Positions 6,679 through 46,421 of a stretch of DNA of 64,000 nucleotides are shown piece after piece. The notes beneath the pieces were generated by a model. That model did no database searches. It saw only the letters and a list, made by a program, of their open reading frames with translations, and was not told the DNA's origin. The translations under genes and the position numbers were made by a program. Origin of the DNA: Spirochaetota bacterium (GTDB taxonomy: Bacteria; Spirochaetota; UBA4802; UBA5368); NCBI GenBank assembly GCA_035477215.1, contig DATIKU010000030.1, positions 22,299-86,298 of the forward strand. The letters run 5' to 3'. How positions within the stretch are numbered: position 1 is the first letter of the stretch; every line of letters starts with the position of its first letter.

Positions 6679-6839
6679 GGCGGATATTCCATCGGCCCGC
6701 CCCATTGCGACAGGAGACACCGGATACCCGGCGGCGTTATCGGGATTTAATATTTGCTCAGGCGAGCGGTTTGCGTTATCATGATTCCAGTGATGACCAT
6801 CAAACAGCGGACCCATCAGTCCGCGGAGGAAGGGTTGTC

Positions 6840-23188: not shown

Positions 23189-24436
23189 TCATCCCTTTTT
23201 CTGTTTGATGATCTCCATGAACGCGTCGATGCGGGTTTCGATCTGGCTTTCGCTCCAGGCGCGTTCGTCGACCATGTCGGCCTCGATCATAAGACTGGGC
23301 AGGCCCGTATCGCGCTGCAGGGATTTCATGATGTCGTACTGGCCCAGCGAGTACGGCTTGCAGCTGCGGTTTGAATGCATAACGATCCCGTCCACGTCGT
23401 ACTTTTTGATCATTTTCTTGATGATCTTGAGCATCTCGTCCACGCCGATATTGAGATAGATACGCGTGTAGCCTTCGACCATGGAGCCGAGGAAATCGTT
23501 CTCGTCGAGGTATTCGAGCGAGCCGCACCACGCGGAGGTGTAGGTATCGGCGACCAGGCACGCGTCGTACGAGGCGAACTTATCGGAGAGCCACTTGGTC
23601 TTGAACCATACCGGCAGGTTGTCCCACAGCAGGCGGTAGCGTTCGTTCGGGACGGCGCCGATCTTTTGCGCCGCGCGCTCCTTCATCTCTTCGAGCAGCA
23701 TCGTATAGTAGTCCACCGCCGTCTGCGTCCCCCGGAGCGTCACGATGAGGGCAAGGTGGAAAAACGCGTCGAAGGCCGACATGGGCGCCGGTTTGTTCAT
23801 TGTAGTGTCAAGCACGTCCTGCCAGAGGCGCTGGCCCTGCAGGGAAAGCCTGCCGACCTCCTTCATTTTATCCATATCGAACTTTTTACCGCATACCACC
23901 TCGAGGAATTTTATATACTCATCGATCTGGCTGCGGACGTACTTCCTTGCTTCGCTCGAAAACTCGGTGTGGCAGAACGGCGTGTCGAAGATGAAAAGCG
24001 GCACCTTGTAGTAGCGGGCCTGCACCTCGTACCATTTGAGCACCGTGCCGCAGATGTTGTTGCAGCACACCAGGAAATCCGGGGCGGGGAGCCCCCCTAT
24101 GGGACCGCCGTTTACCGTGGAGGCCGCGATGTCCGAGCGGGCGTACGAACAGATGTCGCGGCAATATCCCATGTCCTCGGCCTTCTCGCAGAGGTCCACT
24201 CCCATCTTGGAAGCGCCGATCATGGCACCGTGGTTTTCCGGGTAGACCGGTATTGCGTCCATAACGATGAGTGGCTCTACGGGACCGCCGCTGGTGATCC
24301 AGGCGACCTTCTTTCCGTTCTGCGCGGCGGTTTTTGCGTCTATATAGTACGCGGTCATTATCTCCTTCATTTTCTTGATGGATTTGACCTTCATCTTTTC
24401 CTTCTCGGGGTCCTTCTTTAAATGTTCTTCAGACAT
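23189..24436 (-). CDS. 2-hydroxyacyl-CoA dehydratase / BcrBC-BadDE family component (HgdA/HgdB-like). ORF open to 24535; likely start MSEEHLKKD at 24436 with a GGAGA RBS.
   Basis: Cys-rich HgdAB-family regions (YCRDICSYARSD, FLVCCNNICGT). Adjacent to a paralogous component. Confidence 0.7.
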   Translation of the reverse strand: MSEEHLKKDPEKEKMKVKSIKKMKEIMTAYYIDAKTAAQNGKKVAWITSGGPVEPLIVMDAIPVYPENHGAMIGASKMGVDLCEKAEDMGYCRDICSYARSDIAASTVNGGPIGGLPAPDFLVCCNNICGTVLKWYEVQARYYKVPLFIFDTPFCHTEFSSEARKYVRSQIDEYIKFLEVVCGKKFDMDKMKEVGRLSLQGQRLWQDVLDTTMNKPAPMSAFDAFFHLALIVTLRGTQTAVDYYTMLLEEMKERAAQKIGAVPNERYRLLWDNLPVWFKTKWLSDKFASYDACLVADTYTSAWCGSLEYLDENDFLGSMVEGYTRIYLNIGVDEMLKIIKKMIKKYDVDGIVMHSNRSCKPYSLGQYDIMKSLQRDTGLPSLMIEADMVDERAWSESQIETRIDAFMEIIKQKKG

Positions 24437-24506
24437 GATTTTTCTCCTCGATTGATATCGAACGACATCCGGCCAGCCGCCGCCCGGAAGCGGCTTATGA
24501 TTTTGC

Positions 24507-25628
24507 CTAACGCAGCATCTCGATAAAGGCCTCAAAGCGCGTCGAGAGCTGTCCCTCAGAAGGAAGGTCCTGCTCGATCTCCATCAGCATGCTCGGGACG
24601 CCCTCCCGGTCCAGCATCTCCTTCATGTACGGATAGTCGAAGGAGTGCGGATCGCAGAATTTCAACAGCAAAAAGATGACGCCCGACGCGCGGTGCTCCT
24701 TCGCGATGCCCACTATACCGTCGCCCCTGGCCGTGATGGACGAATGCTTCGCCGGGCACACGACGCGTTCGGTAAACCGGTCCGCGAGCGCTTCGATGGG
24801 ATCGCCGCCCTCGGACACCAGGCCCTCAAAATAGCGCGACCCTGTGCAAAGGTCGTCCCAGACCACCGCGCCGCCCGATTTTTCGATTATCGAATAGATG
24901 TCGGCATGGTCGCAGAGCCCGCCGCTTAAAACGATACGCTTCCCTGAATCGGCCCCCGCGGCCTTCGTTTTTTCCAGTTGGTCAGCAACGGCCGTAAGCT
25001 TTTCCGCGGCGTCCGCCCGGTCCATGATCATTGCACTCTTTACGAGCGCGTAGACGTCCGCTCCCGCTATCAGCCCGGGATTCGCGCTTCGCAGACGGTA
25101 TATTTTCCCGAGCGCGCGCTTTATCGTGTTGAAGGTTTTGATCGACTTTGAGAGCTGCGCGTCGGTAATACTGAGGCCAAGGTCCATTTCGAGCTCGCGT
25201 TTGAACTTGCGCAATACATCCCCCATGTATTGCCTCGCGCTCGACGTATCAAGCTTCACCGGCAGCACCACGTCGGAATGAAAACTGAACTTCAGATTGA
25301 GACGCCAGATGTCCGAGAGTCGCTGGATTGAATCGCAGGTATGGGGGAACACCGCACCGTCGAGGAACTCGAGTCTTCCCGCAAGGGCCTCCTCGAGTAC
25401 GCCGCGCACCAGCGAACAACTGTATGCCTGCAAATGGGCGTCCGCGTGGGCGATGGCCGAGCGGGTCCCGAAAAGCCTGAGTGGATGAATCCCCGCGGCG
25501 TGAATGATCTCCTCGGGCGTATATGAGCAGAAGTATCCGAGGATCTTTTTCCCCGAGTCGTTTTTAAGACGCCGTGCGTATCCGTCGCTGTCGTTGATTA
25601 CGTCGTGAAATTGCCGGATCGTATTCAT
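24507..25628 (-). CDS. 2-hydroxyacyl-CoA dehydratase family component (HgdB/HgdA-like), first gene of the operon
   Basis: ILGYFCSYTPEEIIHAAGIHPLRLFG N-terminal HgdAB-family signature. 373 aa. Confidence 0.7.
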   Translation of the reverse strand: MNTIRQFHDVINDSDGYARRLKNDSGKKILGYFCSYTPEEIIHAAGIHPLRLFGTRSAIAHADAHLQAYSCSLVRGVLEEALAGRLEFLDGAVFPHTCDSIQRLSDIWRLNLKFSFHSDVVLPVKLDTSSARQYMGDVLRKFKRELEMDLGLSITDAQLSKSIKTFNTIKRALGKIYRLRSANPGLIAGADVYALVKSAMIMDRADAAEKLTAVADQLEKTKAAGADSGKRIVLSGGLCDHADIYSIIEKSGGAVVWDDLCTGSRYFEGLVSEGGDPIEALADRFTERVVCPAKHSSITARGDGIVGIAKEHRASGVIFLLLKFCDPHSFDYPYMKEMLDREGVPSMLMEIEQDLPSEGQLSTRFEAFIEMLR

Positions 25629-26820: not shown

Positions 26821-26848
26821 ATCCCCATGGCGACATGGGGATTTTTTT
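26821..26848 (+). terminator. Intrinsic terminator, plus-strand orientation
   Basis: 9-bp stem ATCCCCATG/CATGGGGAT with GCGA tetraloop followed by T6-7. It overlaps the stop of the convergent lipoprotein gene. Confidence 0.65.
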
Positions 26849-27389
26849 ACAGCCGCCATTGGTCGCGGAGGACCTCCATTTCAAGTTCGTAATAATACTC
26901 CGCTACGGCCTCTTCGATCGAGGCGTGTAATTTCGGCAGTCGCGGCTCTATCAAAGGGTTTTTCGCAAGCAGTTGCTTTCTGATATGGCCGGTAAAGGTA
27001 TCAAGAGGGGGGATCAGATAGTTTTTGACATAGGTATACTGCTTCCAGTCTCTTTCAATCTCGTATGCGGACATTCTGTGACGCATCATCGCCCCGAGGC
27101 GGTATAGCTTTTTATAGAACTCCAGGATATCGTCCGGACTAAAATCCTGGAGCGCCGCCGCCAGCGCCTTCTCCCTTGCCGGCATGTTCGTTTCGCTGAA
27201 CGAATGCGAGTGGATGTAATCGATCTCTATCTCATCATCGAAGCCGAATCCGTAATCGAGCGCCTCGCTGGTTTTCTCGAGCATCTTTTTTTGCGCCGGC
27301 GAAAAAATCGAGTCGTCGCGGACGGGCATTAACGCACACCCTCCCGCGAATATCAGCACCAACGGCAATAACACCCATTTCATGTTCAT
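26847..27389 (-). CDS. Hypothetical lipoprotein
   Basis: Signal peptide plus lipobox (LIFAGGC), 180 aa, no other motif. Confidence 0.5.
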   Translation of the reverse strand: MNMKWVLLPLVLIFAGGCALMPVRDDSIFSPAQKKMLEKTSEALDYGFGFDDEIEIDYIHSHSFSETNMPAREKALAAALQDFSPDDILEFYKKLYRLGAMMRHRMSAYEIERDWKQYTYVKNYLIPPLDTFTGHIRKQLLAKNPLIEPRLPKLHASIEEAVAEYYYELEMEVLRDQWRL

Positions 27390-27406
27390 CTCTCGATCAA
27401 TATCCT

Positions 27407-28444
27407 TTATTCGAAATCTTCCAGACGCAATGGGAAGTCTTCCGGGATGTCACGCCGGCTCGTGCGGCCCAGCATTCGCCTCAGATCCGCGACCGGCATT
27501 CCCACGCCGGGTCGCTTGACCGCAACCGCGTCCCGGTCCAGCGCTTCGCCGGCGCGAAGGGGCCTTCTGCTAAAGAGGCTTCTGCGTGCCGAATTTGCAA
27601 CCTCTTTTTCAGAAAAGTCATAGTCGATGCGCCCATCGCCCATCATTTCCATCGCCGTCTCGACATCGCCCCTCATGCGGCGAAACTCCGCCGGGGAAAG
27701 CGACACGGCCGCATCCGGGCAGTCATACCCCTCTTCCGGCATGAAGTGCTTCTCGAAAACGCGCGCACCGAGCATCGCGGCGAGCGCGCAGCCCCTCCCG
27801 TCGGTTGAATGATCCGAAAATCCCACCGGAATGCCGAAGCGTTCGCGAAGCGACGATATCCGCGAAAGGTTGGCCTTGTCGCAAGGGAGCGGATATAGAG
27901 CGACGCAGTGAAGCAGGATGATGCCGCTCGTTCCGCCCCGCCGGAGTGTGTCGATGGCACGCCCGATCTCATCGCCGGTGGATATTCCGGTGGACATGAT
28001 GACGGGTTTGCCGGTGGCGGATACGCGCTCGAGGAGCGGAGTGTTCGTTACCTCCGAAGAGGCGAGCTTGTACAGGGGGATGCCGACCCGCTCGAGCATT
28101 TCGACAGATTGAATATCGAAGGCGGAGGAAAAAAAGACAAGGTTCGCCGCCTCCGCCGCTCTTTTAAGCTCATGATAGTCATCCTCTCCCAGAACGAAGC
28201 GTCGGAAAAAATCGATTTGCGCGGTATCCGCCACGAGGTTTTTTTCTCCCCGCAGCATCGAGTTCGTGTAACGTGAGTACATCTCCTCCGGAACAAAGGT
28301 CTGGAGTTTGACGGCGTCGGCCCCGGCCCCCGCGGCCGCTTCGATCATGGAGAGCGCTTCGTCGCGGTTTCCGTTGTGATTAATACCGATTTCCGCGATA
28401 AAAAACGTCGCGTCTCCTTTATGCACTTTCTCCATTCGGTTCAT
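27407..28444 (-). CDS. NeuB family sialic/nonulosonic acid synthase-like protein (N-acetylneuraminate / pseudaminic acid synthase family) with C-terminal SAF domain
   Basis: FIAEIGINHNGN hallmark. TIM-barrel NeuB core. 345 aa. Confidence 0.75.
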   Translation of the reverse strand: MNRMEKVHKGDATFFIAEIGINHNGNRDEALSMIEAAAGAGADAVKLQTFVPEEMYSRYTNSMLRGEKNLVADTAQIDFFRRFVLGEDDYHELKRAAEAANLVFFSSAFDIQSVEMLERVGIPLYKLASSEVTNTPLLERVSATGKPVIMSTGISTGDEIGRAIDTLRRGGTSGIILLHCVALYPLPCDKANLSRISSLRERFGIPVGFSDHSTDGRGCALAAMLGARVFEKHFMPEEGYDCPDAAVSLSPAEFRRMRGDVETAMEMMGDGRIDYDFSEKEVANSARRSLFSRRPLRAGEALDRDAVAVKRPGVGMPVADLRRMLGRTSRRDIPEDFPLRLEDFE

Positions 28445-28635
28445 CCCGCCTCCCCGCCTTTCCCCGGCAATGCCTTATCGTTCATGCGTGTACTGGACAG
28501 CCCCAGGTGATTCAAAGACCCTACTGTATTTTTCGGCATCGGGCCGGTATTTTTAATTGACACAGACCAAAAACAAGTTAATCTTCCATGGCGCTCTGGT
28601 CCAGTCGAAATATCATAAATTCTCGGGGTTTGCGC

Positions 28636-30120
28636 ATGGGTAAGAAGTTTATCATCGCTCTTGATTTGGGCACCACCGGAAACCGCGTATTCTGCTTCGA
28701 TGAGGCTGGCTATCCCCTTTCGAGCGCCTACCGCGAGTTCACCCAGTACTTTCCACGCCCCGGATGGGTCGAGCACGATCCCGAGGAAATCTGGTCATCC
28801 ATCGCGGGTCTGATCACCGAGGCCATCGCCGGGGGAAATCTCGACCCGGCCGACGCTCTGACCATCGGCATAACCAACCAGCGCGAGACCGCCGTCCTCT
28901 GGAACAAGGACACCGGAAAGCCCGTATACAACGCCATCGTATGGCAGTGCCGGAGGACGACCGAAATCTGCAACGATTTAAAGAGTGGGGGCCTCGAGGA
29001 AAGCTTCAAGAAAAAAACGGGCCTCTTGGTGGATGCCTATTTTTCCGGCACAAAGATAAAGTGGATGCTCGACAATGTCTCCGGCGTCAAAGAGCTCGCC
29101 AAATCGGGCAAACTCTTCTTCGGCACCATCGATACCTGGATCCTATGGAAACTCACCGGAGGAAAATCGCACAAGACCGATTATACCAACGCCTCCCGAA
29201 CGCTCGTCTTCAATATAGTCGACAAACGCTGGGACCGCGAGCTGCTCGAGATACTCGGCATCCCCGTGAACATCCTTCCCGAAGTGCGCGATTCGTCCTC
29301 GTTCTTCGGTGAAACGCTCGGCGCCCCCGGTATTCCCGACGGTGTCCCGATCGGCGGAATCGCCGGTGATCAGCAGGCAGCCATGGTGGGTCAAAACTGC
29401 GTTTTCGAGGGGACCATCAAGAACACCTACGGCACCGGTTGTTTTATGCTGCTGAACACGGGCGACTCCTTCATTCTTTCCGACAAGGGCCTCCTCACCA
29501 CGATCGCCTGCAACCCGCTCGGCAAGCCGGCTTATGCATTCGAGGGCTCCGTCTTCGTCGCCGGGGCCGTGGTGCAGTGGCTGCGCGATTACATGAAATT
29601 TTTCGAGCAAAGCCCGGATTCCGACAGGCTCGCCATGTCCTTCGAGAAGGACGACGAGGTGGTAATGATCCCGGCCTTCGTTGGGCTGGGAGCGCCGTAC
29701 TGGAAGATGGACGCGCGCGGTGCCATCTTCGGTCTCACCCGCGACACCACGCGCGAGCAGATCATACGCGCCGCCCTGCGGTCCATCGCGTTCCAGTCCA
29801 TGGACGTCATCGAGGTGATGCAGCAGGACTCGGGTAAGACCATTCACGAACTGCGCGCGGACGGCGGGGCGACGAGAGGGTCGTACCTGATGCAGTTTCA
29901 GGCCGACATACTGGGCATCCCGGTCCTTCTGCCGGAGGTGATCGAGTCGACCGCGCTCGGCGCGGCGTACCTCGCGGGGCTTTCGGCCCGACTGTATAAT
30001 TCGATCGACGAGGTCGCCAAGCAGAACCGGATCGTTACGCGATACATTCCTCAATATTCCGAAAAGGAACGATCAGCCCAGAGAAAGCTCTGGAAAGACG
30101 CCGTTAATCGATTATTGTAA
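28636..30120 (+). CDS. glpK: Glycerol kinase. ORF open from 28588; likely start MGKKFIIALDLGTTG.
   Basis: FIIALDLGTTGNRVF, WVEHDPEEIW, FGTIDTWILWKLTGG: classic GlpK motifs. Confidence 0.9.
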   Translation: MGKKFIIALDLGTTGNRVFCFDEAGYPLSSAYREFTQYFPRPGWVEHDPEEIWSSIAGLITEAIAGGNLDPADALTIGITNQRETAVLWNKDTGKPVYNAIVWQCRRTTEICNDLKSGGLEESFKKKTGLLVDAYFSGTKIKWMLDNVSGVKELAKSGKLFFGTIDTWILWKLTGGKSHKTDYTNASRTLVFNIVDKRWDRELLEILGIPVNILPEVRDSSSFFGETLGAPGIPDGVPIGGIAGDQQAAMVGQNCVFEGTIKNTYGTGCFMLLNTGDSFILSDKGLLTTIACNPLGKPAYAFEGSVFVAGAVVQWLRDYMKFFEQSPDSDRLAMSFEKDDEVVMIPAFVGLGAPYWKMDARGAIFGLTRDTTREQIIRAALRSIAFQSMDVIEVMQQDSGKTIHELRADGGATRGSYLMQFQADILGIPVLLPEVIESTALGAAYLAGLSARLYNSIDEVAKQNRIVTRYIPQYSEKERSAQRKLWKDAVNRLL

Positions 30121-30143
30121 GAACACAACCTGGAGGAAATACT

Positions 30144-30341
30144 ATGGCAAAGCCGCTGCTGGGAGAAATGCTGCTCGAAAACGGGGAGATAACCCGCGAG
30201 CAGCTCGACAAGGCGCTCGAGGTGCAGAAAAAAGAAGGCGGACTCATGGGCATCATTCTCGTCAACATCGGCTTTATCTCCGAGAAGACGCTGGTCAAAT
30301 TTCTCGCGGTGCAGGCCGAGCGTGTGGTGAAATCGGAGTAG
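30144..30341 (+). CDS. Small standalone protein resembling the T2SSE_N / MshEN domain (c-di-GMP-binding fold found at the N-terminus of GspE/MshE ATPases)
   Basis: LLGEMLLENGEITREQLDKALEVQKKEGGLMGIILVNIGFISEKTLVKFLAVQ matches the tandem L..L...GlIt.eqL..AL..Q-type MshEN motif. Strong RBS GGAGGA 7 nt upstream. Confidence 0.45.
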   Translation: MAKPLLGEMLLENGEITREQLDKALEVQKKEGGLMGIILVNIGFISEKTLVKFLAVQAERVVKSE

Positions 30342-30343
30342 TA

Positions 30344-31990
30344 CTATATCCGCTTGTGATTTATTCTTTTGTAAATCAGGTCGTTGGTAACTTTTAGTAT
30401 TTTGTCTATCTTGAACGGCTTTTTAAGAATATAAGCCAGCCCCTGGTCGAGCAGCGTGTTCACGCCGGGAATTTCGTCGACCCCGGTGATGAAGACGATG
30501 TCGGTCGAGGGGCTCACCTTTTTTATCATCTCGAAAACCTTGTCACCTTTTATACCGGGCATGAGGTAATCCAGAAACACAATATCGATGTCTTCGAACC
30601 CGCACATCTCGACGGCCTCCTCTCCGCTTGATACGGCAATTACCTGGTAGCCCGCCGCGTCGAACGCCCGCGAGAGGAATTCGCGTATGGGATCCTCGTC
30701 GTCGACTATGAGAATCCGCGTATCCCCGAAGAACACCACTTCGCTTTGCTCGTATCGCGCGCCCTTATCGTCGCCCAGTTCGGTGCGCGGAAACACAAGG
30801 TATATCTCCTTGCCGTTATCCTTATCGCTCGCGATGGTGAGCAGACCTCCGTGGCTCTGCATGATGCCATACGCCACTGCGAGCCACAAGCCGGTGGCCT
30901 CCTTCCCGCCGCGGATGTCGCGCCCGTCCGTAGGTGTTAATCCGCCCATAAATGGATGTATCGCCATGTCGACCTGATCGCGGGTCATGCCGCTTCCATT
31001 GTCCCGAATGGTCAGAACCACCTTCTCGTCCAGGTATTCGGTCGAGATCTCAATGAGACCGGGCTCGTCCCGGTCCAGGGTGTGAATGGAGTTTTGCAGT
31101 ACGTTGAGTATTGCTTCCTTCACCTGTTCGCGGTCGACGAGGACCCGGGGGATATGTCCGTTTCGTACGGTTATCTCGATCCCCTCCTTTTCCATGACTG
31201 ACCTCTGCATCGAAACGACCTCGCCCACGATCTCGCCAAGCTGGTGGTGCTGCAACTTCGCGTTTTTGCCTTTTACAAAGACATTGAGGCTCTCGATGAG
31301 CCGGGCGCCCCGCTCGGTCTGGTTGTCGATAACCGAGACGGCGTTTTGAATCGATTTCGATTCCGGGCTCTGCATGTTGATGAGCTCGGCATATCCCTGA
31401 ATCACCGCGAATATATTGTTGAACTCGTGTGCGACGCTCGAGGAGAGCACTCCGAGGCTCGTAATTTTTTCGGAATACATCTCTTCGGGATTCACCTTTT
31501 CCATCCCCTGCAGCTCCGCGATCTGCTCCCTGAAGAGCGCCGATGAACCGATGATTCTGCCCGACAGCTGATAAAAATTGACGTTCTGTCTCTGCCGTGC
31601 GAGCTCACCGATATCGAACACTACTCCGATCATGCCCATTGTTTTATCACCGCCGACCAGCGGCACGAGAACCGCCGTTACTGCGAGGCCTTCGCGTGCT
31701 TCGGCCTCGGACGCGGGGAGATATATGACGCTCTTTTTCTTGATGGCCCTGCGCACCATGAGCGAGAAGTTGGGGAATGCGCCGATATGCCGGTCGAAAT
31801 TACCGCCCGCCTCCCCCACCAGCACCAGTTTTTCCTCGGACTCTATGGATATGTACCCAGCCGTTGAAAGCGGCGACATCTCCTTCTGGATGGCATCGAC
31901 GCAAGTTTTCAGATAGTCGTCGACGTCCTTAGCCTTCGAGGCCCCGCCAAGGAGGGCCATTGCAAGCTCGAATTGCGGTTTTGTAAGCAT
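30344..31990 (-). CDS. Hybrid sensor histidine kinase (GAF-like sensor, HisKA, HATPase_c, C-terminal REC)
   Basis: SVAHEFNN H-box, G-boxes (DNGSGM, GLWLA), C-terminal receiver ILIVDDEDPIREFL...FLDYLMPG. Confidence 0.8.
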   Translation of the reverse strand: MLTKPQFELAMALLGGASKAKDVDDYLKTCVDAIQKEMSPLSTAGYISIESEEKLVLVGEAGGNFDRHIGAFPNFSLMVRRAIKKKSVIYLPASEAEAREGLAVTAVLVPLVGGDKTMGMIGVVFDIGELARQRQNVNFYQLSGRIIGSSALFREQIAELQGMEKVNPEEMYSEKITSLGVLSSSVAHEFNNIFAVIQGYAELINMQSPESKSIQNAVSVIDNQTERGARLIESLNVFVKGKNAKLQHHQLGEIVGEVVSMQRSVMEKEGIEITVRNGHIPRVLVDREQVKEAILNVLQNSIHTLDRDEPGLIEISTEYLDEKVVLTIRDNGSGMTRDQVDMAIHPFMGGLTPTDGRDIRGGKEATGLWLAVAYGIMQSHGGLLTIASDKDNGKEIYLVFPRTELGDDKGARYEQSEVVFFGDTRILIVDDEDPIREFLSRAFDAAGYQVIAVSSGEEAVEMCGFEDIDIVFLDYLMPGIKGDKVFEMIKKVSPSTDIVFITGVDEIPGVNTLLDQGLAYILKKPFKIDKILKVTNDLIYKRINHKRI

Positions 31991-33393: not shown

Positions 33394-36300
33394 TTAACTC
33401 GAATAATCGAGAGCGGCAAGACGACTGTATGTCTTGTACCGCCAGCGCGCGTTATCCTCCGCCGCCTTGAAGAGATCTTCGGCAGCGGCCGGGAATTCGT
33501 GTTGGAGCGAGGAATAACGGATTTCGCCCATGAGAAACTCCCGGAACTGCTCAAATTTGGGCTCCTTCGAATCGAGTACGAACGGGTTCTTGCCTTCTTT
33601 TTCGAGCATCGGATTGTAACGGTAGAGCTGCCAGTAACCGGATTCAACCGCACGTTTGGACTCCTCCTGCGACTTGCTCATACCGGCGCGAAGTCCGTGG
33701 CTGATACAGGGCGAATAGGCTATAATCACCGATGGTCCCGGGTAGGCCTCGGCCTCCACCAGCGCTTTTATAAACTGGTTCTGGTTTGCCCCCATGGCCA
33801 CCTGGGCTACATACACATATCCGTAGCTCATTGCCATAAGGCCCAGGTCTTTTTTGCGAGTGCGCTTTCCCGCCGCGGCGAACTGTGCCACTGCCGCCGT
33901 CGGTGTCGCCTTCGACGACTGGCCGCCGGTGTTGGAATATATCTCGGTATCCATTACCAGCAGATTGATGTCATCGCCGGAGGCGATGACATGATCAAGA
34001 CCGCCGAAACCGATGTCGTAAGCCCAGCCGTCTCCGCCAAACACCCATATTGAGCGTTTTACCAGGTAATCTTTAAAAGAAAGCATCTCGGCGGCAAGCT
34101 CGCCGCCGTCTTTTTCCAGAAGAGGAACCAGTTTTGCGGCGGCGGCCTTCGATTTCTCGGCGTCGTCCTTTCCCTCCATCCATTCCTTAAGCGCCGATTT
34201 AAGTTCCGCCGAGGCCCCGCCGGCCAGATATTTTTCGGCGGCGATAACGATCCTGTTGCGCATCTTGCCCACCCCGAGGAACATCCCGTACCCGTACTCG
34301 GCGGCATCTTCGAAGAGCGAACTGGCCCATGACGGACCGCAGCCGTCGGCATTGACACAGTAGGGCGTTGCCGGCGCCGAGCCCCCGTAAATTGAGGAAC
34401 AGCCGGTGGCGTTGGCGATCATCATCCGATCTCCGTAGAGCTGGGTGATGAGTTTGATATAGGGAGTCTCGCCGCACCCCGCGCACGCGCCCGAAAACTC
34501 GAACAGGGGCTTGGCAAACTGGCTGCCCTTCACGGTGGTCTTACTCATCAGATTGTCCTTGATTGAGACTTTGTGCGCAAAGTATTCCCATCGTGGAGCC
34601 TCGGCGAGCTGCGTTTCGAGCGGCTTCATGATGAGGGCCTTCTGCTTTGAAGGGCAGACATCCGCGCAGACTCCACAGCCCGTGCAGTCGAGCGGGCTTA
34701 TCTGGATTTTATAGTGAAGTCCGTCGAGTTCCTTGCCCTTCGCTTCGATTGTCACCGTGCCCACGGGCATATTTTTCAGCTCTTTTTCATTAAGGAGGAA
34801 GGGGCGGATGACCGCGTGCGGACAGACGTAGGCGCACTGGTTACACTGTATGCAATGCTCGCTCTGCCATTCCGGGACATTGACGGCAATCCCCCGTTTC
34901 TCGTACGCCGAGGTACCGGGCGGAAACGTACCGTCTGCACGGTCAATAAAAGCGCTGACCGGCAGCAGATCGCCCTCCAGACTGTTCATGGGATAGACGA
35001 TTTTCTCGATGAATTCGGGGAGTTGCTCATCCGACTGCTTTTTCTTCGGAACGATGTTCTTCCATTCCGCGGGGATTTGGACCTCCATCACCTTTTCTCC
35101 GCCTTTTTCGACCGAGGCGTTGTTGAGGTTGACGATATCATCGCCTTTCTTGCCATAGGTTTTTTTAATGGCATTCTTCATGTCCGTTACGGCCTTCTCA
35201 TAGGCGATTACGTTGGCCACTTTGAAAAACGCCGCCTGCATAATCGTATTGGTGCGACCAGACATGCCGAGATCCTCGGCGATCTGTGTTGCGTTGATTA
35301 TAAAAAACCGTATTTCATTCTCCGCGAGCGTTCTTTTGACCGTATCGGGAAGGCGATTTTTTGTCTCCTCGGCGTCCCAAATGCTGTTCAGTAAAAACGT
35401 GCCGCCCTTCTTGATCCCGCGCAGCATATCGTACTTTTCCATGTATGCCGAAACATGGCAGGCCACGAAATCGGGCCTGGTGACCAGATATGTGGACCTG
35501 ATGGGCTTTTCCCCAAAACGCAGGTGGGATACCGTGACGCCGCCGGATTTCTTCGAATCGTATGCGAAATAGGCTTGTGCGAAAAGATTTGTGTTGTCAC
35601 CGATGATTGTGATGGAATTTTTGTTCGCGCTGACGGTGCCGTCCGAACCTACCCCGTAAAAGCGCGCGCTGAATGTTCCTTCCGGGACCACGTCCACATC
35701 GTCCGTGACCGGAAGCGACTTAAAGGTGACGTCATCGACAATACCGATGGTAAACCCGTCCTTTGGATCGGAGTGCTTGAGGTTCTCGAATACCGCAAGT
35801 ATCTGACCGGGGGTGGTGTCCTTGGAACTGAGACCGTAACGCCCGCCAACGATAACCGGGGCGTCCTTCTTTTGATAAAACAGGTTTTTAACGTCAAGGT
35901 AAAGGGGTTCGCCCATGGCGCCCGGTTCTTTCGTGCGATCGAGGACGGCTATGCGTTTTACCGACTTAGGAATGGCCTTGGAAAAATATTTTTCGGAGAA
36001 CGGCCGGTACAAATGAACCTTGAGAAGTCCAACTTTCTCACCCTTCGATACGAGGTGGTCTATTACGTCATGGATCGTTTCGGTGACCGATCCCATTGCA
36101 ATCAGTACATGCTCGGGATTATCCGCCCCATAATAAACGAAGGGATGGTACTGGCGGCCCGTTAAGCGGCTTATATGCTGCATGTATTCATCGACTATGT
36201 CCGGGATGGCGTCGTACCACCGGTTGGAGGCCTCGCGAACCTGGAAGTAAATGTCAGGGTTCATGGCCGTTCCGCGCGTCACCGGTTTATTCGGATTGAG

Positions 36301-36936
36301 GGCGTTTTTTCTGAACCGCTCGAGAGCGTCTTTATCGAGGAGGCCGGCCAGTTCGTCGAATTCGAGAACTTCGATCTTTTGTATCTCGTGCGATGAACGG
36401 AACCCATCGAAAAAATGCATAAATGGAACCCGGCCCTTTATGGCGGAGAGATGCGCCACCGCACCGAGGTCCATTATCTCCTGGATGCTTCCTGTGGCAA
36501 GCATGGCGAAACCGGTCTGCCTCGTTGCGTAAACGTCGGCATGGTCGCCGAAAATAGAGAGGGCGTGCGCCGAGAGGGATCGAGCGCTCACGTGGAAAAC
36601 GCCCGGCAGAAGCTCGCCGGAGATCTTATACATGTTCGGGATCATGAGCAGCAATCCCTGAGATGCCGTATAGGTTGTCGTGAGCGCCCCGGCCTGGAGC
36701 GATCCGTGCATGGCAGCGGCGGCCCCGGCCTCGGACTGCATCTCTACGACATGCACCTGGTCGCCGAAAATATTCTTCATGCCGTAGGCCGCCCACTTGT
36801 CGGTATTCTCCGCCATCGGCGTCGACGGAGTGATCGGATATATCGCGGCGACCTCGGTAAAGGCATAGGCTACATGAGCCGCGGCCATATTGCCGTCCAT
36901 GGATTTCATAACCCGCTTTTTTGTCATTGAAGCCAT
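33394..36936 (-). CDS. nifJ: Pyruvate:ferredoxin (flavodoxin) oxidoreductase, single-polypeptide NifJ/PorA type
   Basis: 1180 aa. N-terminal MDGNMAAAHVAYAF, two 4Fe-4S ferredoxin motifs (CIQCNQCAYVCPHA, CTGCGVCADVCP) and a TPP-binding C-terminal domain. Confidence 0.9.
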   Translation of the reverse strand: MASMTKKRVMKSMDGNMAAAHVAYAFTEVAAIYPITPSTPMAENTDKWAAYGMKNIFGDQVHVVEMQSEAGAAAAMHGSLQAGALTTTYTASQGLLLMIPNMYKISGELLPGVFHVSARSLSAHALSIFGDHADVYATRQTGFAMLATGSIQEIMDLGAVAHLSAIKGRVPFMHFFDGFRSSHEIQKIEVLEFDELAGLLDKDALERFRKNALNPNKPVTRGTAMNPDIYFQVREASNRWYDAIPDIVDEYMQHISRLTGRQYHPFVYYGADNPEHVLIAMGSVTETIHDVIDHLVSKGEKVGLLKVHLYRPFSEKYFSKAIPKSVKRIAVLDRTKEPGAMGEPLYLDVKNLFYQKKDAPVIVGGRYGLSSKDTTPGQILAVFENLKHSDPKDGFTIGIVDDVTFKSLPVTDDVDVVPEGTFSARFYGVGSDGTVSANKNSITIIGDNTNLFAQAYFAYDSKKSGGVTVSHLRFGEKPIRSTYLVTRPDFVACHVSAYMEKYDMLRGIKKGGTFLLNSIWDAEETKNRLPDTVKRTLAENEIRFFIINATQIAEDLGMSGRTNTIMQAAFFKVANVIAYEKAVTDMKNAIKKTYGKKGDDIVNLNNASVEKGGEKVMEVQIPAEWKNIVPKKKQSDEQLPEFIEKIVYPMNSLEGDLLPVSAFIDRADGTFPPGTSAYEKRGIAVNVPEWQSEHCIQCNQCAYVCPHAVIRPFLLNEKELKNMPVGTVTIEAKGKELDGLHYKIQISPLDCTGCGVCADVCPSKQKALIMKPLETQLAEAPRWEYFAHKVSIKDNLMSKTTVKGSQFAKPLFEFSGACAGCGETPYIKLITQLYGDRMMIANATGCSSIYGGSAPATPYCVNADGCGPSWASSLFEDAAEYGYGMFLGVGKMRNRIVIAAEKYLAGGASAELKSALKEWMEGKDDAEKSKAAAAKLVPLLEKDGGELAAEMLSFKDYLVKRSIWVFGGDGWAYDIGFGGLDHVIASGDDINLLVMDTEIYSNTGGQSSKATPTAAVAQFAAAGKRTRKKDLGLMAMSYGYVYVAQVAMGANQNQFIKALVEAEAYPGPSVIIAYSPCISHGLRAGMSKSQEESKRAVESGYWQLYRYNPMLEKEGKNPFVLDSKEPKFEQFREFLMGEIRYSSLQHEFPAAAEDLFKAAEDNARWRYKTYSRLAALDYSS

Positions 36937-44678: not shown

Positions 44679-46421
44679 ATGCAACAGATCATCACCGGCA
44701 TCATAGCCTCCCCCGGAATAAAGATCGGCAAAGCCTATGTTTATCACGGCACCAATCTCATAATACCCAAATATACCGTCGAACCCGACCAGGTCGATGA
44801 CGAACTGGACAGGTACAGGCAAACGCTTGCAAAGACGAAAGCCGACATTAAATCCATACAAGTGCAGATTTCAAAAAGCCTCTCCCGTGATATGGCCGAT
44901 ATTTTCTCGAGCCACCTGATGGTGCTCGAGGATCCCATGATAACCGAAAAGGTGGTGCGCAACATCCGCGAAAACCGCCGCAATGTCGAATGGGTCATAA
45001 ACGATATTTCGATGGAGCTGATCCGGAGCCTTTCGTCCATTGAGGACGTTTACCTCAGGGAGCGCATCGTCGACATCTCGGACATCCACAAGCGCCTCAT
45101 TAATAATCTTCAGAATGCCAGCGCACCGTCCCTGCCCAACATCGAGAAGGAGGTCATACTGTTCTCGGCCGACCTTACCCCTTCCGATACGGCCATGATG
45201 AATAAAAAGTATGTGCTCGCTTTCGTCACCGATATGGGGGGCCGCACCTCGCATACCGCCATCATGGCGCGGGCGCTCGAGATACCGGCGATCGTCGGCA
45301 CCCTCAACGGCACCTCCATGGTCAAGGACGGACAGATGGTGATCGTCGACGCCCTTCATGGCAAGGTCATAATCGCGCCCACCGCCGAACAGATCGATGA
45401 ATACAAAAGATACCAGGAGGACCTCCTTTTACTTGACGCGGAACTGGCCAAGCTCACGCACCTGCCGGCCACAACGCTCGACAACGAGGTCTGCCACATA
45501 TACGGCAACATCGAGATGCCGGAAGAGATGAAGGTGTTGAAGGAGCACGGGGCGCAGGGTATCGGCCTTTACCGCTCGGAGTTCCTCTTTCTCGACCGGG
45601 CGCTTCCCGACGAGGACAAACAGTACGCGGCCTATAAAAAGGTTCTGGAATTTTTCAAGCCCATGCCGGTAACCATACGCACGCTGGACGTGGGGGGCGA
45701 CAAGATCTACGCCTACTATAAGACCGTTAAGGAGCGCAATCCCTTCCTCGGATGCCGTGCGATCCGTTTCAGCCTTGAAAACGTGCCGCTGTTTCGCACC
45801 CAGCTCCGCGCCATACTTCGGGCGAGCGTGTACGGGAACACCCGGCTCATGTTCCCCATGATTTCCACCGTCGAGGAGATCATCAAATCGCGGAACATCC
45901 TTTACGAGACCATGGACGATTTGCGCAGGGAGAAAAAGGAGTTCGATGCCGAAATTCCCATAGGTATAATGATAGAGGTCCCTTCGGCCGCCATAAACGC
46001 GGACCGCCTCGCCGCCCACTCGGACTTTTTTTCGGTGGGCACCAACGACCTCGTCCAGTACACAATCGCCGTCGACAGGCTTTCCGAAAAAATAGCCTAC
46101 CTGTATAATCCCCTCAACCTGTCGGTGCTGCGCCTTCTCAAGCATATAGTCGACACTTCGACAAAATACGAGATACCTCTTTCCATCTGCGGCGAGATGG
46201 CCGGCGAACCCCGCTATACGGTCCCGCTCCTTGGGCTCGGTTTCAGGAATTTTTCCATGGGAACGGCATTCATGTACCAGACCAAGCGCATTATCCGCTC
46301 CGTAAATATAAGCGAATGCGAAGAGGTGGTCGAGGAGATGATGAAGCACGACATTACCGAGGAGATAGAAAAAACCCTGCTCGATTATCTCGGCCGGAAA
46401 TTCCCGACCATGCTTATCTGA
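44679..46421 (+). CDS. ptsI: Phosphoenolpyruvate-protein phosphotransferase (PTS enzyme I)
   Basis: GGRTSHTAIMARAL phospho-His region, GIGLYRSEFLF, CGEMAG. 580 aa. Confidence 0.9.
   Translation: MQQIITGIIASPGIKIGKAYVYHGTNLIIPKYTVEPDQVDDELDRYRQTLAKTKADIKSIQVQISKSLSRDMADIFSSHLMVLEDPMITEKVVRNIRENRRNVEWVINDISMELIRSLSSIEDVYLRERIVDISDIHKRLINNLQNASAPSLPNIEKEVILFSADLTPSDTAMMNKKYVLAFVTDMGGRTSHTAIMARALEIPAIVGTLNGTSMVKDGQMVIVDALHGKVIIAPTAEQIDEYKRYQEDLLLLDAELAKLTHLPATTLDNEVCHIYGNIEMPEEMKVLKEHGAQGIGLYRSEFLFLDRALPDEDKQYAAYKKVLEFFKPMPVTIRTLDVGGDKIYAYYKTVKERNPFLGCRAIRFSLENVPLFRTQLRAILRASVYGNTRLMFPMISTVEEIIKSRNILYETMDDLRREKKEFDAEIPIGIMIEVPSAAINADRLAAHSDFFSVGTNDLVQYTIAVDRLSEKIAYLYNPLNLSVLRLLKHIVDTSTKYEIPLSICGEMAGEPRYTVPLLGLGFRNFSMGTAFMYQTKRIIRSVNISECEEVVEEMMKHDITEEIEKTLLDYLGRKFPTMLI

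What the first reader, a model, noticed from the sequence alone, without database searches (positions are those of the whole stretch)
30144..30341. Standalone 65-aa MshEN-like domain protein (putative c-di-GMP receptor) between glpK and a GAF hybrid histidine kinase
The ORF has an excellent RBS (GGAGGA-N7-ATG). It encodes only a domain resembling the N-terminal T2SSE_N/MshEN module of GspE/MshE ATPases, a fold shown to bind c-di-GMP through tandem L-x-x-L-x-x-G-x-I/L-x-x-x-Q-L-x-x-A-L motifs. Both halves of the motif are recognisable (LGEMLLENGEITREQLDKALEVQ; GGLMGIILVNIGFISEKTLVKFLAVQ). MshEN almost always occurs fused to an ATPase or other output domain; a free-standing copy would act as a small c-di-GMP adaptor, possibly modulating the adjacent hybrid kinase.
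Basis: partly seen in the sequence, partly recalled or inferred. Interest (0 to 1): 0.55.

Follow-up and report, generated by a model that had tools for sequence, protein, structure and literature searches.

The report
Free-standing 65-residue c-di-GMP receptor after glpK
A real, very strongly conserved 65-amino-acid gene of uncultured spirochaetes encodes only the c-di-GMP-binding four-helix module of MshE-type secretion ATPases, and it usually follows the glycerol kinase gene rather than the neighbouring sensor kinase, which suggests an untested link between this second messenger and glycerol use.

Summary
The ORF at 30144..30341 (+) is real. It has a GGAGGA ribosome site and third-codon-position-biased divergence. 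Homologues of 64-69 aa occur in at least 80 Spirochaetota species genomes, at a median 73% identity, which is higher than for the adjacent GlpK enzyme.

It is a single MshEN_N subdomain: two 24-residue c-di-GMP motifs joined by a 5-residue spacer.
- NCBIfam NF053729 scores 65 bits against a cutoff of 38.
- It matches V. cholerae MshE residues 9-62 with E 1e-8.
- It is 50% identical to the c-di-GMP-bound PilF GSPII-B domain.
- The AlphaFold model superposes on 5HTL at 0.7 Å.

The crystallised MshE and PilF motif segments fail it too.

[quoted passage not shown] Published PilF mutants show that this favours nanomolar binding, and isolated N-subdomains bind c-di-GMP on their own.

The conserved neighbour is glpK. 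It lies immediately upstream on the same strand in 69 of 80 species, with nothing ever in between. The hybrid kinase is adjacent in only 17 of 80.

Best reading: a trans-acting, high-affinity c-di-GMP receptor co-transcribed with glpK. Its target is unproven and GlpK is the leading candidate. It is a new variant of a known kind, of moderate interest.

The parts
30132..30137 (+). Shine-Dalgarno sequence GGAGGA, 6 nt upstream of the ATG
   Evidence: Read directly from the sequence. A GGAG/GAGG/AGGA core lies 4-18 nt upstream of the start codon in 80 of 80 related loci.
30144..30341 (+). Gene for the 65-aa stand-alone MshEN_N protein (stop codon 30339-30341)
   Evidence: ORF list. NF053729 scores 65 bits against a cutoff of 38. 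100% identical to a 'hypothetical protein' of a Spirochaetota MAG. AlphaFold2 pLDDT 89.7, four helices. Purifying selection.
30156..30227 (+). c-di-GMP motif I, residues 5-28 (LLGEMLLENGEITREQLDKALEVQ)
   Evidence: Aligns with MshE residues 9-32. It matches 10 of 11 consensus positions; the exception is E15 at position 11. L5, L6, G7 and Q28 are conserved in 80-81 of 81 sequences.
30228..30242 (+). Five-residue spacer KKEGG, residues 29-33
   Evidence: The length is exactly the 5 residues required by the MshEN_N definition. E31, G32 and G33 are invariant in this family, although this spacer is described as non-conserved in MshEN generally.
30243..30314 (+). c-di-GMP motif II, residues 34-57 (LMGIILVNIGFISEKTLVKFLAVQ)
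   Evidence: Aligns with MshE residues 38-61. It matches 10 of 11 consensus positions; position 2 is M35 here and Ile in 72 of 80 relatives. L34, G36, L50, L54 and Q57 are 80 of 80.
30315..30338 (+). Family-specific C-terminal extension of helix 4 (AERVVKSE)
   Evidence: A58, E59 and V61 are invariant or nearly so. In PilF, helix 4 is the only part of the N-subdomain that touches the C-terminal subdomain, and that subdomain is absent here. Its role as a docking surface is an inference.
28636..30120 (+). glpK, glycerol kinase, probably co-transcribed (the listed ORF starts at 28588; homologues begin at 28636)
   Evidence: FGGY_N and FGGY_C hits. E. coli GlpK matches with E 3e-179 over residues 3-493. 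It is immediately upstream on the same strand in 69 of 80 species, with a median gap of 63 nt. No promoter-like or terminator-like site lies in the 23-nt gap.
30344..31990 (-). GAF-HisKA-HATPase_c-REC hybrid histidine kinase, a convergent neighbour that is not a conserved partner
   Evidence: Pfam domains. Present downstream in only 17 of 80 related loci, at a median 44% identity.
26847..28444 (-). Divergent unit of NeuB/SAF (27407..28444) and a 180-aa predicted lipoprotein (26847..27389), part of the conserved block
   Evidence: Pfam NeuB and SAF; no Pfam family for the 180-aa protein. NeuB is found upstream in about 60 of 80 loci. Where glpK is absent, NeuB lies directly upstream and divergent (8 of 80, plus P0135).

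Best explanation
The gene encodes a minimal cytoplasmic c-di-GMP receptor, a single MshEN_N four-helix bundle with no output domain. By homology, its two tandem 24-residue motifs should clamp one extended c-di-GMP molecule. The two guanines would stack on Leu clusters (L6/L50/L54 and L21/L25/M35) and be capped by L5 and L34. They would be read by the backbone amides of G7-E8 and G36-I37, while Q28 and Q57 hold the ribose and phosphate. Leu at the first position of both motifs, plus Pro4 just before motif I, predicts nanomolar rather than micromolar affinity. The gene is translated from the glpK transcript. Having no effector domain, the protein must act in trans by ligand-dependent protein-protein contact. 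The contact surface is probably the family-specific invariant residues, namely the EGG spacer, E47, Y53 and the AERV tail of helix 4. The most likely target is glycerol kinase or glycerol catabolism, so that c-di-GMP level would gate glycerol use. Shown here in silico: the gene is real, the motif and predicted fold are intact, conservation is extreme, and the glpK linkage holds. Inferred: ligand binding, affinity class, action in trans, and the identity of the target. Sub-claim probabilities: binds c-di-GMP about 0.8; acts as a trans-acting adaptor about 0.7; the target is GlpK or glycerol metabolism about 0.3.
For: Profile and sequence: NF053729 'cyclic di-GMP-binding domain, MshE-related' gives E 3.8e-18 and covers model positions 2-53 of 53. 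All 23 family members tested match it. MshE 5HTL residues 9-62 match with E 1e-8, and PilF with E 5e-19. Fold: pLDDT 89.7. Foldseek finds 5HTL (MshE with c-di-GMP) at rmsd 0.7 Å over 54 residues, and c-di-GMP-bound PilF GSPII-B at 48-51% identity. Binding-site residues are invariant across 80 species. Published experiments support binding by such a module. Isolated MshE 1-62 binds c-di-GMP with KD 0.35 µM, and isolated PilF 159-221 with KD 54 nM. PilF K167L has KD 2 nM, against 6 nM for the wild type. Its native L196 caps the second guanine, and L196R binds 4-fold worse. The consensus was extended to (R/K/L)LG. A helix breaker placed before motif I (L166G) improves KD to 3 nM. Gene reality: codon-position bias and an RBS in 80 of 80 loci. 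Context: glpK is immediately upstream on the same strand in 69 of 80 species and nothing is ever inserted between them (gaps 11-375 nt, median 63), whereas the downstream junction is often broken. In 13 species a GDSL lipase follows on the same strand. The small protein is more conserved (73%) than GlpK (69%), NeuB (50%) or the kinase (44%). Single-domain PilZ genes in 10 related loci show that the clade uses c-di-GMP. Precedent in spirochaetes: in Borrelia, c-di-GMP controls the glp operon.
Against: No binding or interaction data exist. The motif deviates at two consensus positions. E15 replaces a core hydrophobic residue; the equivalent I19R is one of eight changes listed for the non-binder XpsE. 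M35/Ile replaces the Leu whose Ala mutant (L39A) loses more than 10-fold affinity. No GGDEF, EAL or HD-GYP gene was seen in the 64-kb window. glpK is absent from 11 of 80 loci, and the small protein is just as conserved there, so an adjacent glpK is not required. The whole block (lipoprotein-NeuB, then divergent glpK-small gene, then convergent aminotransferase) is syntenic across the clade, so part of the glpK linkage may be inherited gene order rather than function. No fusion of this module to GlpK was seen.
Confidence: 0.6

Rival explanations
1. One reading: the small receptor modulates the adjacent GAF-containing hybrid histidine kinase.
For: The two genes abut, with stop codons 2 nt apart. 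The same kinase follows the small gene in 17 related species, in two sub-clades. MshEN_N is known fused to REC and kinase modules elsewhere.
Against: The kinase is missing from 63 of 80 loci, yet the small protein is equally conserved there. The genes are convergent, so they are not co-transcribed. The kinase diverges quickly (median 44% identity) while the small protein does not (73%).
Confidence: 0.05
2. The receptor acts on the divergently transcribed NeuB/lipoprotein unit, that is, on synthesis of a sialic-acid-like sugar or a surface glycan, and glpK is a passenger in the locus.
For: NeuB and the roughly 180-aa lipoprotein are found upstream in about 60 and 50 of 80 loci. When glpK is missing, the small gene sits directly opposite NeuB and shares its intergenic region (8 of 80 loci, plus P0135). 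c-di-GMP commonly controls surface polysaccharides. The MshEN-containing glycosyltransferase NfrB is one example.
Against: The genes are on opposite strands, so they are not co-transcribed. NeuB is not detected within 5 kb in about a quarter of the loci. NeuB and the lipoprotein diverge much faster (50% and 28%) than the small protein.
Confidence: 0.1
3. It is a partner-less c-di-GMP buffer, a high-affinity sink that sets the free c-di-GMP level, rather than a specific adaptor.
For: There is no output domain, the predicted affinity is very high, and a strong RBS suggests abundant synthesis.
Against: Many invariant residues lie outside the ligand site and the core: E31-G32-G33, E47, Y53, and A58-E59 with V61. 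Overall conservation exceeds that of an essential enzyme. Both point to additional macromolecular contacts.
Confidence: 0.1
4. The fold is retained but the ligand is different or absent (for example 3'3'-cGAMP, or a purely protein-binding helical bundle).
For: MshEN_N also binds cGAMP weakly. Degenerate MshEN domains such as XpsE have lost binding. Two consensus positions deviate here. No cyclase was seen in the window.
Against: Twenty of 22 consensus positions are kept, including both Gly and both Gln residues and all Leu-cluster positions, and they are invariant in 80 species. The deviations at motif position 1 are experimentally favourable. XpsE differs at eight key positions, not two.
Confidence: 0.12
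5. It is the detached N-terminal piece of a split type II secretion or type IV pilus ATPase and supplies c-di-GMP control to that ATPase in trans.
For: JGI pipelines name it PilB, MshE or XagB. MshEN_N is most often fused to such ATPases.
Against: No secretion-ATPase gene is among the recurrent neighbours in 80 loci. Those neighbours are glpK, aminotransferase IV, NeuB, a lipoprotein, an ABC ATPase, RsgA, argininosuccinate lyase, the kinase and a GDSL lipase. The names are transfers from the shared 53-residue motif only.
Confidence: 0.03

Closest known systems
MshEN_N subdomain of Vibrio cholerae MshE (PDB 5HTL; Wang et al. 2016, PMC5013675)
   Same: Both have two 24-residue motifs, a 5-residue spacer and a four-helix bundle. 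Identity is 42%, and the model superposes at 0.7 Å over 54 residues. The isolated 1-62 fragment binds c-di-GMP on its own.
   Different: MshE continues into MshEN_C and a secretion ATPase, whereas this protein stops 8 residues after motif II. The capping residues R9 and R38 are Leu here, and the positive patch of MshE is missing.
N-terminal subdomain of Thermus thermophilus PilF GSPII-B (PDB 8PDK/8PE0; PMC11731258)
   Same: This is the closest solved relative, at 48-51% identity. It is the arginine-free, hydrophobic-cap type: native L196, and the K167L mutant at 2 nM. The 63-residue subdomain alone binds at 54 nM.
   Different: It is part of a 900-residue pilus ATPase with three such domains, whereas this is a separate gene product in a metabolic operon.
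Output-less tandem (MshEN_N)2 proteins, e.g. Cyanothece cce_1044 (Wang et al., Supplementary Table 4)
   Same: They consist of MshEN_N only, with no T2SSE_N1 and no effector domain. Many proteins of 122-166 aa with two modules score E 1e-18 to 1e-33 against this family's profile.
   Different: They carry two modules per chain, and this protein carries one. A single-module form is not listed in that catalogue. Only four clusters of about 65-68 aa appear among the top 150 representatives.
Single-domain PilZ adaptors (e.g. P. aeruginosa MapZ, Borrelia PlzA); comparison from my own knowledge
   Same: The working principle is the same: a small c-di-GMP-binding protein without an enzymatic domain that acts by ligand-dependent binding to another macromolecule.
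   Different: The fold is unrelated (a beta-barrel against a four-helix bundle) and so is the binding chemistry. This protein is not a member of that family.
Control of glycerol kinase and the glp operon: E. coli EIIA-Glc/FBP inhibition of GlpK (my own knowledge) and Borrelia Rrp1/PlzA control of glpFKD (PMC3128128, PMC9915621)
   Same: A small regulatory protein acting on GlpK has precedent. In spirochaetes, c-di-GMP governs glycerol catabolism. Borrelia also has a small unknown ORF, bb0242, directly after glpK.
   Different: Borrelia uses a PilZ protein acting on nucleic acid. Homology of bb0242 to this protein could not be tested. The residue of this GlpK that aligns with the FBP-binding Arg236 is Gly (the role of Arg236 is from my own knowledge).

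Membership tests
MshEN_N c-di-GMP-binding subdomain | Two copies of (R/K/L)LGxx(L/V/I)(L/V/I)xxG(L/V/I/F)(L/V/I)xxxxLxxxLxxQ | tested here: met
   Residues 5-28 and 34-57 match 20 of 22 specified positions. The exceptions are E15 (position 11 of motif I) and M35 (position 2 of motif II; Ile in most relatives).
MshEN_N c-di-GMP-binding subdomain | Exactly five residues between the motifs, giving a 53-residue unit | tested here: met
   The spacer KKEGG is residues 29-33. The NF053729 alignment covers model positions 2-53 of 53 without gaps.
MshEN_N c-di-GMP-binding subdomain | Significant match to a curated profile of the motif | tested here: met
   NF053729.1 scores 65 bits against a cutoff of 38, E 3.8e-18. 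All 23 of 23 family members match.
MshEN_N c-di-GMP-binding subdomain | Four-helix bundle superposable on ligand-bound MshE or PilF | tested here: met
   The AlphaFold2 model has pLDDT 89.7 and helices at 6-12, 18-31, 35-41 and 47-64. It superposes on 5HTL_B at rmsd 0.7 Å with TM 0.80, and on 8PDK and related entries at rmsd 1.0-1.2 Å. This is a predicted structure, not a solved one.
MshEN_N c-di-GMP-binding subdomain | Specific binding of c-di-GMP | not testable with these tools
   This needs ITC, DRaCALA or DSF. It is supported only by analogy with the isolated subdomains of MshE and PilF.
Full MshEN domain / Pfam T2SSE_N (PF05157) | MshEN_C (T2SSE_N1) alpha/beta subdomain following the helical bundle | tested here: not met
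   The protein ends 8 residues after motif II. There is no PF05157 hit at E <= 1. The Pfam model does not cover MshEN_N, and the control segments of MshE, PilF and PilB also give no hit.
GspE/PilB/MshE secretion ATPases (the names given by JGI) | T2SSE ATPase domain | tested here: not met
   The product is 65 aa with no ATPase domain. The TIGR02538 PilB match has E 0.038 and covers only residues 2-53 of that model.
(MshEN_N)2 output-less proteins | Two MshEN_N modules in one chain | tested here: not met
   There is one module only. All 80 orthologues but one are 64-69 aa; the exception is L081, which carries an in-frame stop.
glp (glycerol utilisation) operon member | Same strand as glpK, short gap, adjacency conserved across species | tested here: met
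   Adjacency holds in 69 of 80 species, with a median gap of 63 nt and 23 nt in the window. No promoter-like or terminator-like site lies in the gap. Co-transcription itself was not measured.

The most novel reading that the evidence does not exclude
The 65-residue protein is a c-di-GMP-gated allosteric regulator of glycerol kinase. It would be a second-messenger counterpart of EIIA-Glc, and it would place central carbon entry under direct post-translational c-di-GMP control in a large uncultured spirochaete lineage. It may also be functionally equivalent to the unexplained small ORF bb0242 that follows glpK in Borrelia.
Probability: 0.25. Interest if true: 0.7.

Novelty: new variant of a known kind. 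Interest (0 to 1): 0.5.

Why it matters
c-di-GMP networks have many enzymes that make and break the messenger but few identified receptors. A 65-residue single-module MshEN_N is probably close to the smallest possible protein receptor for c-di-GMP. It is invisible to Pfam and is annotated as 'hypothetical' or wrongly as PilB, MshE or XagB. It is conserved in about 100 species of uncultured Spirochaetota.

Its near-constant position behind glpK gives a concrete, testable hypothesis: c-di-GMP acts on glycerol catabolism at the protein level. That theme is already known genetically in Borrelia, but through a different receptor.

The protein is also an attractive minimal scaffold for biosensors or structural work. 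It has no arginine cap, its predicted affinity is nanomolar, and it is short enough for chemical synthesis.

Tried and rejected
- Pfam T2SSE_N search. It gave no hit. I rejected it as a test after reading that the model omits the binding helices and after a control with the MshE, PilF and PilB binding segments, which also gave no hit.
- Rfam scan of the window for a riboswitch near glpK. It found only three tRNAs.
- Promoter and terminator scan of 28300-30700. Nothing lies between glpK and the small ORF.
- Search for GGDEF, EAL, HD-GYP, PilZ or further MshEN genes in the window, by regex and by Pfam on 20 large ORFs. None was found. tblastn found no second copy.
- Foldseek against afdb50. The library was unavailable.
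- Retrieval of Borrelia bb0242 to test homology.
- Search for relatives of the distant stand-alone protein P0169. It is a singleton.
- P0161. Its contig was too short to give any context.
- A fused GlpK-linker-small-protein AlphaFold run. I did not attempt it, because the tool returns no inter-chain error or contact measure and would probably refuse a non-window sequence.
- Literature search for a described single-module stand-alone MshEN_N. None was found in the held library.

Full report
**1. The observation**

The + strand carries an ATG...TAG ORF of 65 codons at 30144..30341. GGAGGA lies at 30132-30137, 6 nt before the ATG.

The gene upstream, with its stop at 30118-30120, is a canonical FGGY glycerol kinase. 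It matches Pfam FGGY_N and FGGY_C, and E. coli GlpK aligns at E 3e-179 over residues 3-493. The listed ORF starts at 28588, but homologues and the E. coli alignment begin at 28636.

The gene downstream is convergent. It is a GAF-HisKA-HATPase_c-REC hybrid kinase at 30344..31990, and its stop codon is 2 nt from the stop of the small ORF.

**2. It is a real gene**

- The exact protein exists as a 'hypothetical protein' of a Spirochaetota MAG. At least 169 homologues were found, nearly all 64-69 aa and 69-92% identical.
- A scan of one genome per species found 106 relatives. The 80 loci kept are all Spirochaetota MAGs, many of them labelled Leptospirales or Leptospiraceae.
- All but one of those 80 encode an intact 64-69-aa product that starts with Met. 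The exception, L081, has an in-frame stop at codon 12.
- Among 49 orthologues of equal length, differences by codon position are 16970, 8782 and 46732 for positions 1, 2 and 3. Synonymous codon changes outnumber non-synonymous ones, although nucleotide identity is only about 68%.
- A Shine-Dalgarno core precedes the start codon in 80 of 80 loci.
- Median identity to the window protein is 73%. That is higher than for GlpK (69%), NeuB (50%), the kinase (44%) and the upstream lipoprotein (28%) in the same loci. A 65-residue non-enzyme under that much constraint almost certainly has more than one functional surface.

**3. What the protein is**

NCBIfam NF053729, 'cyclic di-GMP-binding domain-containing protein, MshE-related', is a 53-position model. 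It matches residues 6-57 at 65 bits against a cutoff of 38. All 23 family members tested also match it.

Against solved structures, the protein aligns without gaps to V. cholerae MshE residues 9-62 (E 1e-8). It also aligns to the GSPII domains of T. thermophilus PilF (E 5e-19).

An AlphaFold2 model has pLDDT 89.7 and four helices. It superposes on c-di-GMP-bound MshE (5HTL) at 0.7 Å over 54 residues, and on c-di-GMP-bound PilF GSPII-B at 1.0-1.2 Å with 48-51% identity.

I checked the motif against the published definition of two 24-residue motifs and a 5-residue spacer.
- Residues 5-28 and 34-57 match 20 of 22 specified positions, and the spacer is exactly five residues.
- Both backbone-donor glycines (G7, G36), both glutamines (Q28, Q57) and the Leu-cluster positions (L6, L21, L25, L50, L54) are present. 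All are invariant or nearly so across 80 species, except L25, which is Leu, Ile or Val.
- The two deviations are E15 at a core position and M35 (Ile in relatives) where MshE has L39.

**4. The missing arginines are not a defect**

The first residue of each motif is Arg in MshE. Here it is Leu: L5 in 80 of 81 sequences and L34 in 80 of 80.

In MshE that Arg stacks on guanine through its aliphatic chain, and mutating it changes affinity less than five-fold.

The PilF study is directly relevant.
- PilF naturally has Lys and Leu at these positions and binds at 6 nM.
- K167L binds at 2 nM, and a crystal structure shows the Leu stacking on guanine.
- L196R weakens binding 4-fold.
- The authors extended the consensus to (R/K/L)LG.
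- A helix breaker just before motif I (L166G) improves binding to 3 nM, because the first turn of helix 1 must unwind for the ligand to enter.

Here Pro4 occupies that position in 72 of 81 sequences, and the model leaves residues 1-5 non-helical.

Both isolated N-subdomains bind without the rest of the domain. MshE 1-62 binds at 0.35 µM and PilF 159-221 at 54 nM.

A free-standing 65-residue version is therefore expected to be a competent receptor, probably of high affinity. This is inference from homology. Nothing has been measured on this protein.

**5. Why the Pfam test fails**

There is none at E <= 1.

[quoted passage not shown] As a control, I scanned the ligand-binding segments of MshE, PilF GSPII-B and a PilB. 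None hits T2SSE_N. Two of them show the same sub-threshold DUF4388, FumaraseC_C or DUF2949 matches as the window protein.

So the negative result says only that MshEN_C is absent. The protein is MshEN_N alone. It is not a full MshEN domain and not a secretion ATPase, despite the JGI names 'PilB', 'MshE' and 'XagB'.

**6. Genomic context**

Across 80 species-level loci, the gene immediately upstream is glpK on the same strand in 69. The gaps are 11-375 nt, with a median of 63, and 60 of 68 measured gaps are 125 nt or less. Where glpK is present, no ORF of 90 aa or more lies between it and the small gene.

In the window the gap is 23 nt, with no promoter-like or terminator-like site.

The downstream junction is much less stable. 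The next gene is:
- a class IV aminotransferase in 34 loci;
- the hybrid kinase in 17;
- a GDSL/SGNH lipase lipoprotein on the same strand in 13;
- other genes in the remainder.

The kinase is thus a lineage-specific insertion, often accompanied by fructose-bisphosphate aldolase, and not the conserved partner.

Two cautions apply.
- The whole block is broadly syntenic in this clade: lipoprotein-NeuB, then divergent glpK-small gene, then a convergent aminotransferase. Inherited gene order therefore contributes to the linkage.
- In 11 of 80 loci, and in P0135, glpK is absent. The small gene then usually sits directly opposite NeuB and is just as conserved.

Adjacency to glpK is therefore the rule but not a requirement.

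**7. c-di-GMP signalling in the clade**

The 64-kb window contains no recognisable GGDEF, EAL, HD-GYP, PilZ or second MshEN gene.

Ten related loci, however, encode a single-domain PilZ protein two genes downstream of the small gene. It matches Pfam PilZ at E 1.6e-14 and has RxxxR and NxSxxG motifs.

A distant 68-aa stand-alone MshEN_N (P0169) lies next to an HD_5-type phosphodiesterase and chemotaxis genes.

Whether the source genome makes c-di-GMP could not be checked with the sequence available.

**8. Mechanism proposed**

With no output domain, the protein can only signal by binding something else.

Several family-specific invariant residues are explained neither by the ligand site nor by the core:
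- E31-G32-G33, in a spacer that is variable in other MshEN domains;
- E47 and Y53;
- the A58-E59-x-V61 extension of helix 4.

In PilF, helix 4 is the only part of the N-subdomain that packs against the C-subdomain. Here that face is free.

I therefore propose a c-di-GMP-dependent docking surface formed by the spacer, helix 4 and the bound nucleotide.

The best candidate target is GlpK. The two genes are probably co-transcribed, that junction is the most stable one in the block, and a lipase joins the same strand in 13 species. A small protein regulating GlpK has precedent in EIIA-Glc of E. coli (my own knowledge). The residue of this GlpK that aligns with the FBP-binding Arg236 of E. coli is Gly (the role of Arg236 is from my own knowledge).

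In Borrelia, c-di-GMP made by Rrp1 is needed for expression of the glp operon, and PlzA binds glpFKD nucleic acid in a c-di-GMP-dependent way. That operon also has a small ORF of unknown function, bb0242, directly after glpK. I could not obtain its sequence, so this is a positional parallel only.

I put c-di-GMP binding at about 0.8, action as a trans-acting adaptor at about 0.7, and GlpK or glycerol metabolism as the target at about 0.3.

**9. Novelty**

The 2016 catalogue of MshEN architectures lists MshEN_N-only proteins fused to REC, AAA_31, CheX and other domains. It also lists an output-less tandem (MshEN_N)2 in cyanobacteria. It does not list a single-module stand-alone form.

In a profile search of 1.84 billion cluster representatives there were 11,024 hits. 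The top 150 were dominated by multi-repeat and two-module proteins. Only four clusters were single modules of about 65-68 aa, and three of those belong to this spirochaete family.

I found no paper in the held library describing such a protein.

The binding module is well known and is already captured by an NCBIfam domain model. The free-standing single-module architecture, its extreme conservation in an uncultured lineage, and the glpK linkage are new. I file it as a new variant of a known kind, with moderate interest (0.5).

Noticed in passing
L018, L021-L024, L032, L044, L079, L080 (about 1.2-1.7 kb downstream of the small gene, e.g. L079:6425-6754) and L012:9901-10182: A single-domain PilZ protein of about 93-116 aa, with RxxxR and NxSxxG motifs and Pfam PilZ E 1.6e-14, lies two genes downstream of the small gene. 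It occurs mostly in the loci that lack glpK. This puts two different minimal c-di-GMP receptors in one neighbourhood.
   Followed up: partly
L035, L038, L041, L042, L048-L050, L053, L056, L060, L061, L064, L066 (e.g. L035:5243-5893): A GDSL/SGNH lipase with a lipoprotein signal follows the small gene on the same strand in 13 species. The resulting order, glpK, small gene, lipase, is consistent with a lipid and glycerol utilisation unit.
   Followed up: partly
L081:4727-4924 and L081:7595-8512: In this MAG the small gene has an in-frame stop at codon 12, which is either a pseudogene or a sequencing error. The same locus encodes a 305-aa multi-pass membrane protein whose N-terminus is another MshEN_N module (50% identity to the window protein).
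   Followed up: partly
L090:5001-5207 (protein P0169): A distant 68-aa stand-alone MshEN_N, with Pro at the second motif position, sits beside an HD_5/HD (HD-GYP-type) protein, two MCPs, single-domain REC genes and a PAS hybrid kinase. It is a singleton in the 5.8-billion-protein database.
   Followed up: partly
Literature: Borrelia burgdorferi bb0240-bb0243: The c-di-GMP-dependent glp operon of Borrelia has a small ORF of unknown function, bb0242, directly after glpK. This is the same position as the gene studied here. Its sequence could not be fetched, so homology is untested.
   Followed up: partly
window 30144-30338 and control peptides: The window protein and MshE residues 9-62 both give sub-threshold Pfam matches to DUF2949 (a cyanobacterial family of about 56 aa), DUF4388 and FumaraseC_C. 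The PilB segment gives DUF4388 only, and the PilF segment gives none. DUF2949 might be a remote stand-alone relative of MshEN_N.
   Followed up: no
window 30339-30346: The stop codons of the small ORF and of the convergent hybrid kinase are 2 nt apart, and no terminator-like site was found. Their transcripts must overlap at the 3' ends unless termination is unconventional.
   Followed up: no
window 28588-28635: The longest glpK ORF starts at 28588, but E. coli GlpK and all orthologues align from the Met at 28636. The extra 16 codons are probably not translated.
   Followed up: partly
window 6705-9206, 23189-25628, 33394-36936 and 44679-46421: The anaerobic metabolism genes include a PFL-like glycyl-radical enzyme, two 2-hydroxyacyl-CoA dehydratase D-components next to an IclR regulator (also conserved in relatives L006 and L007), and a 1180-aa pyruvate:ferredoxin oxidoreductase-like protein. 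PTS enzyme I lies at 44679-46421.
   Followed up: no
window 26847-27389 (-): A 180-aa protein with a lipoprotein signal (LIFAGGC) has no Pfam family. It is always paired with the NeuB/SAF gene in this clade and diverges quickly (median 28% identity).
   Followed up: no
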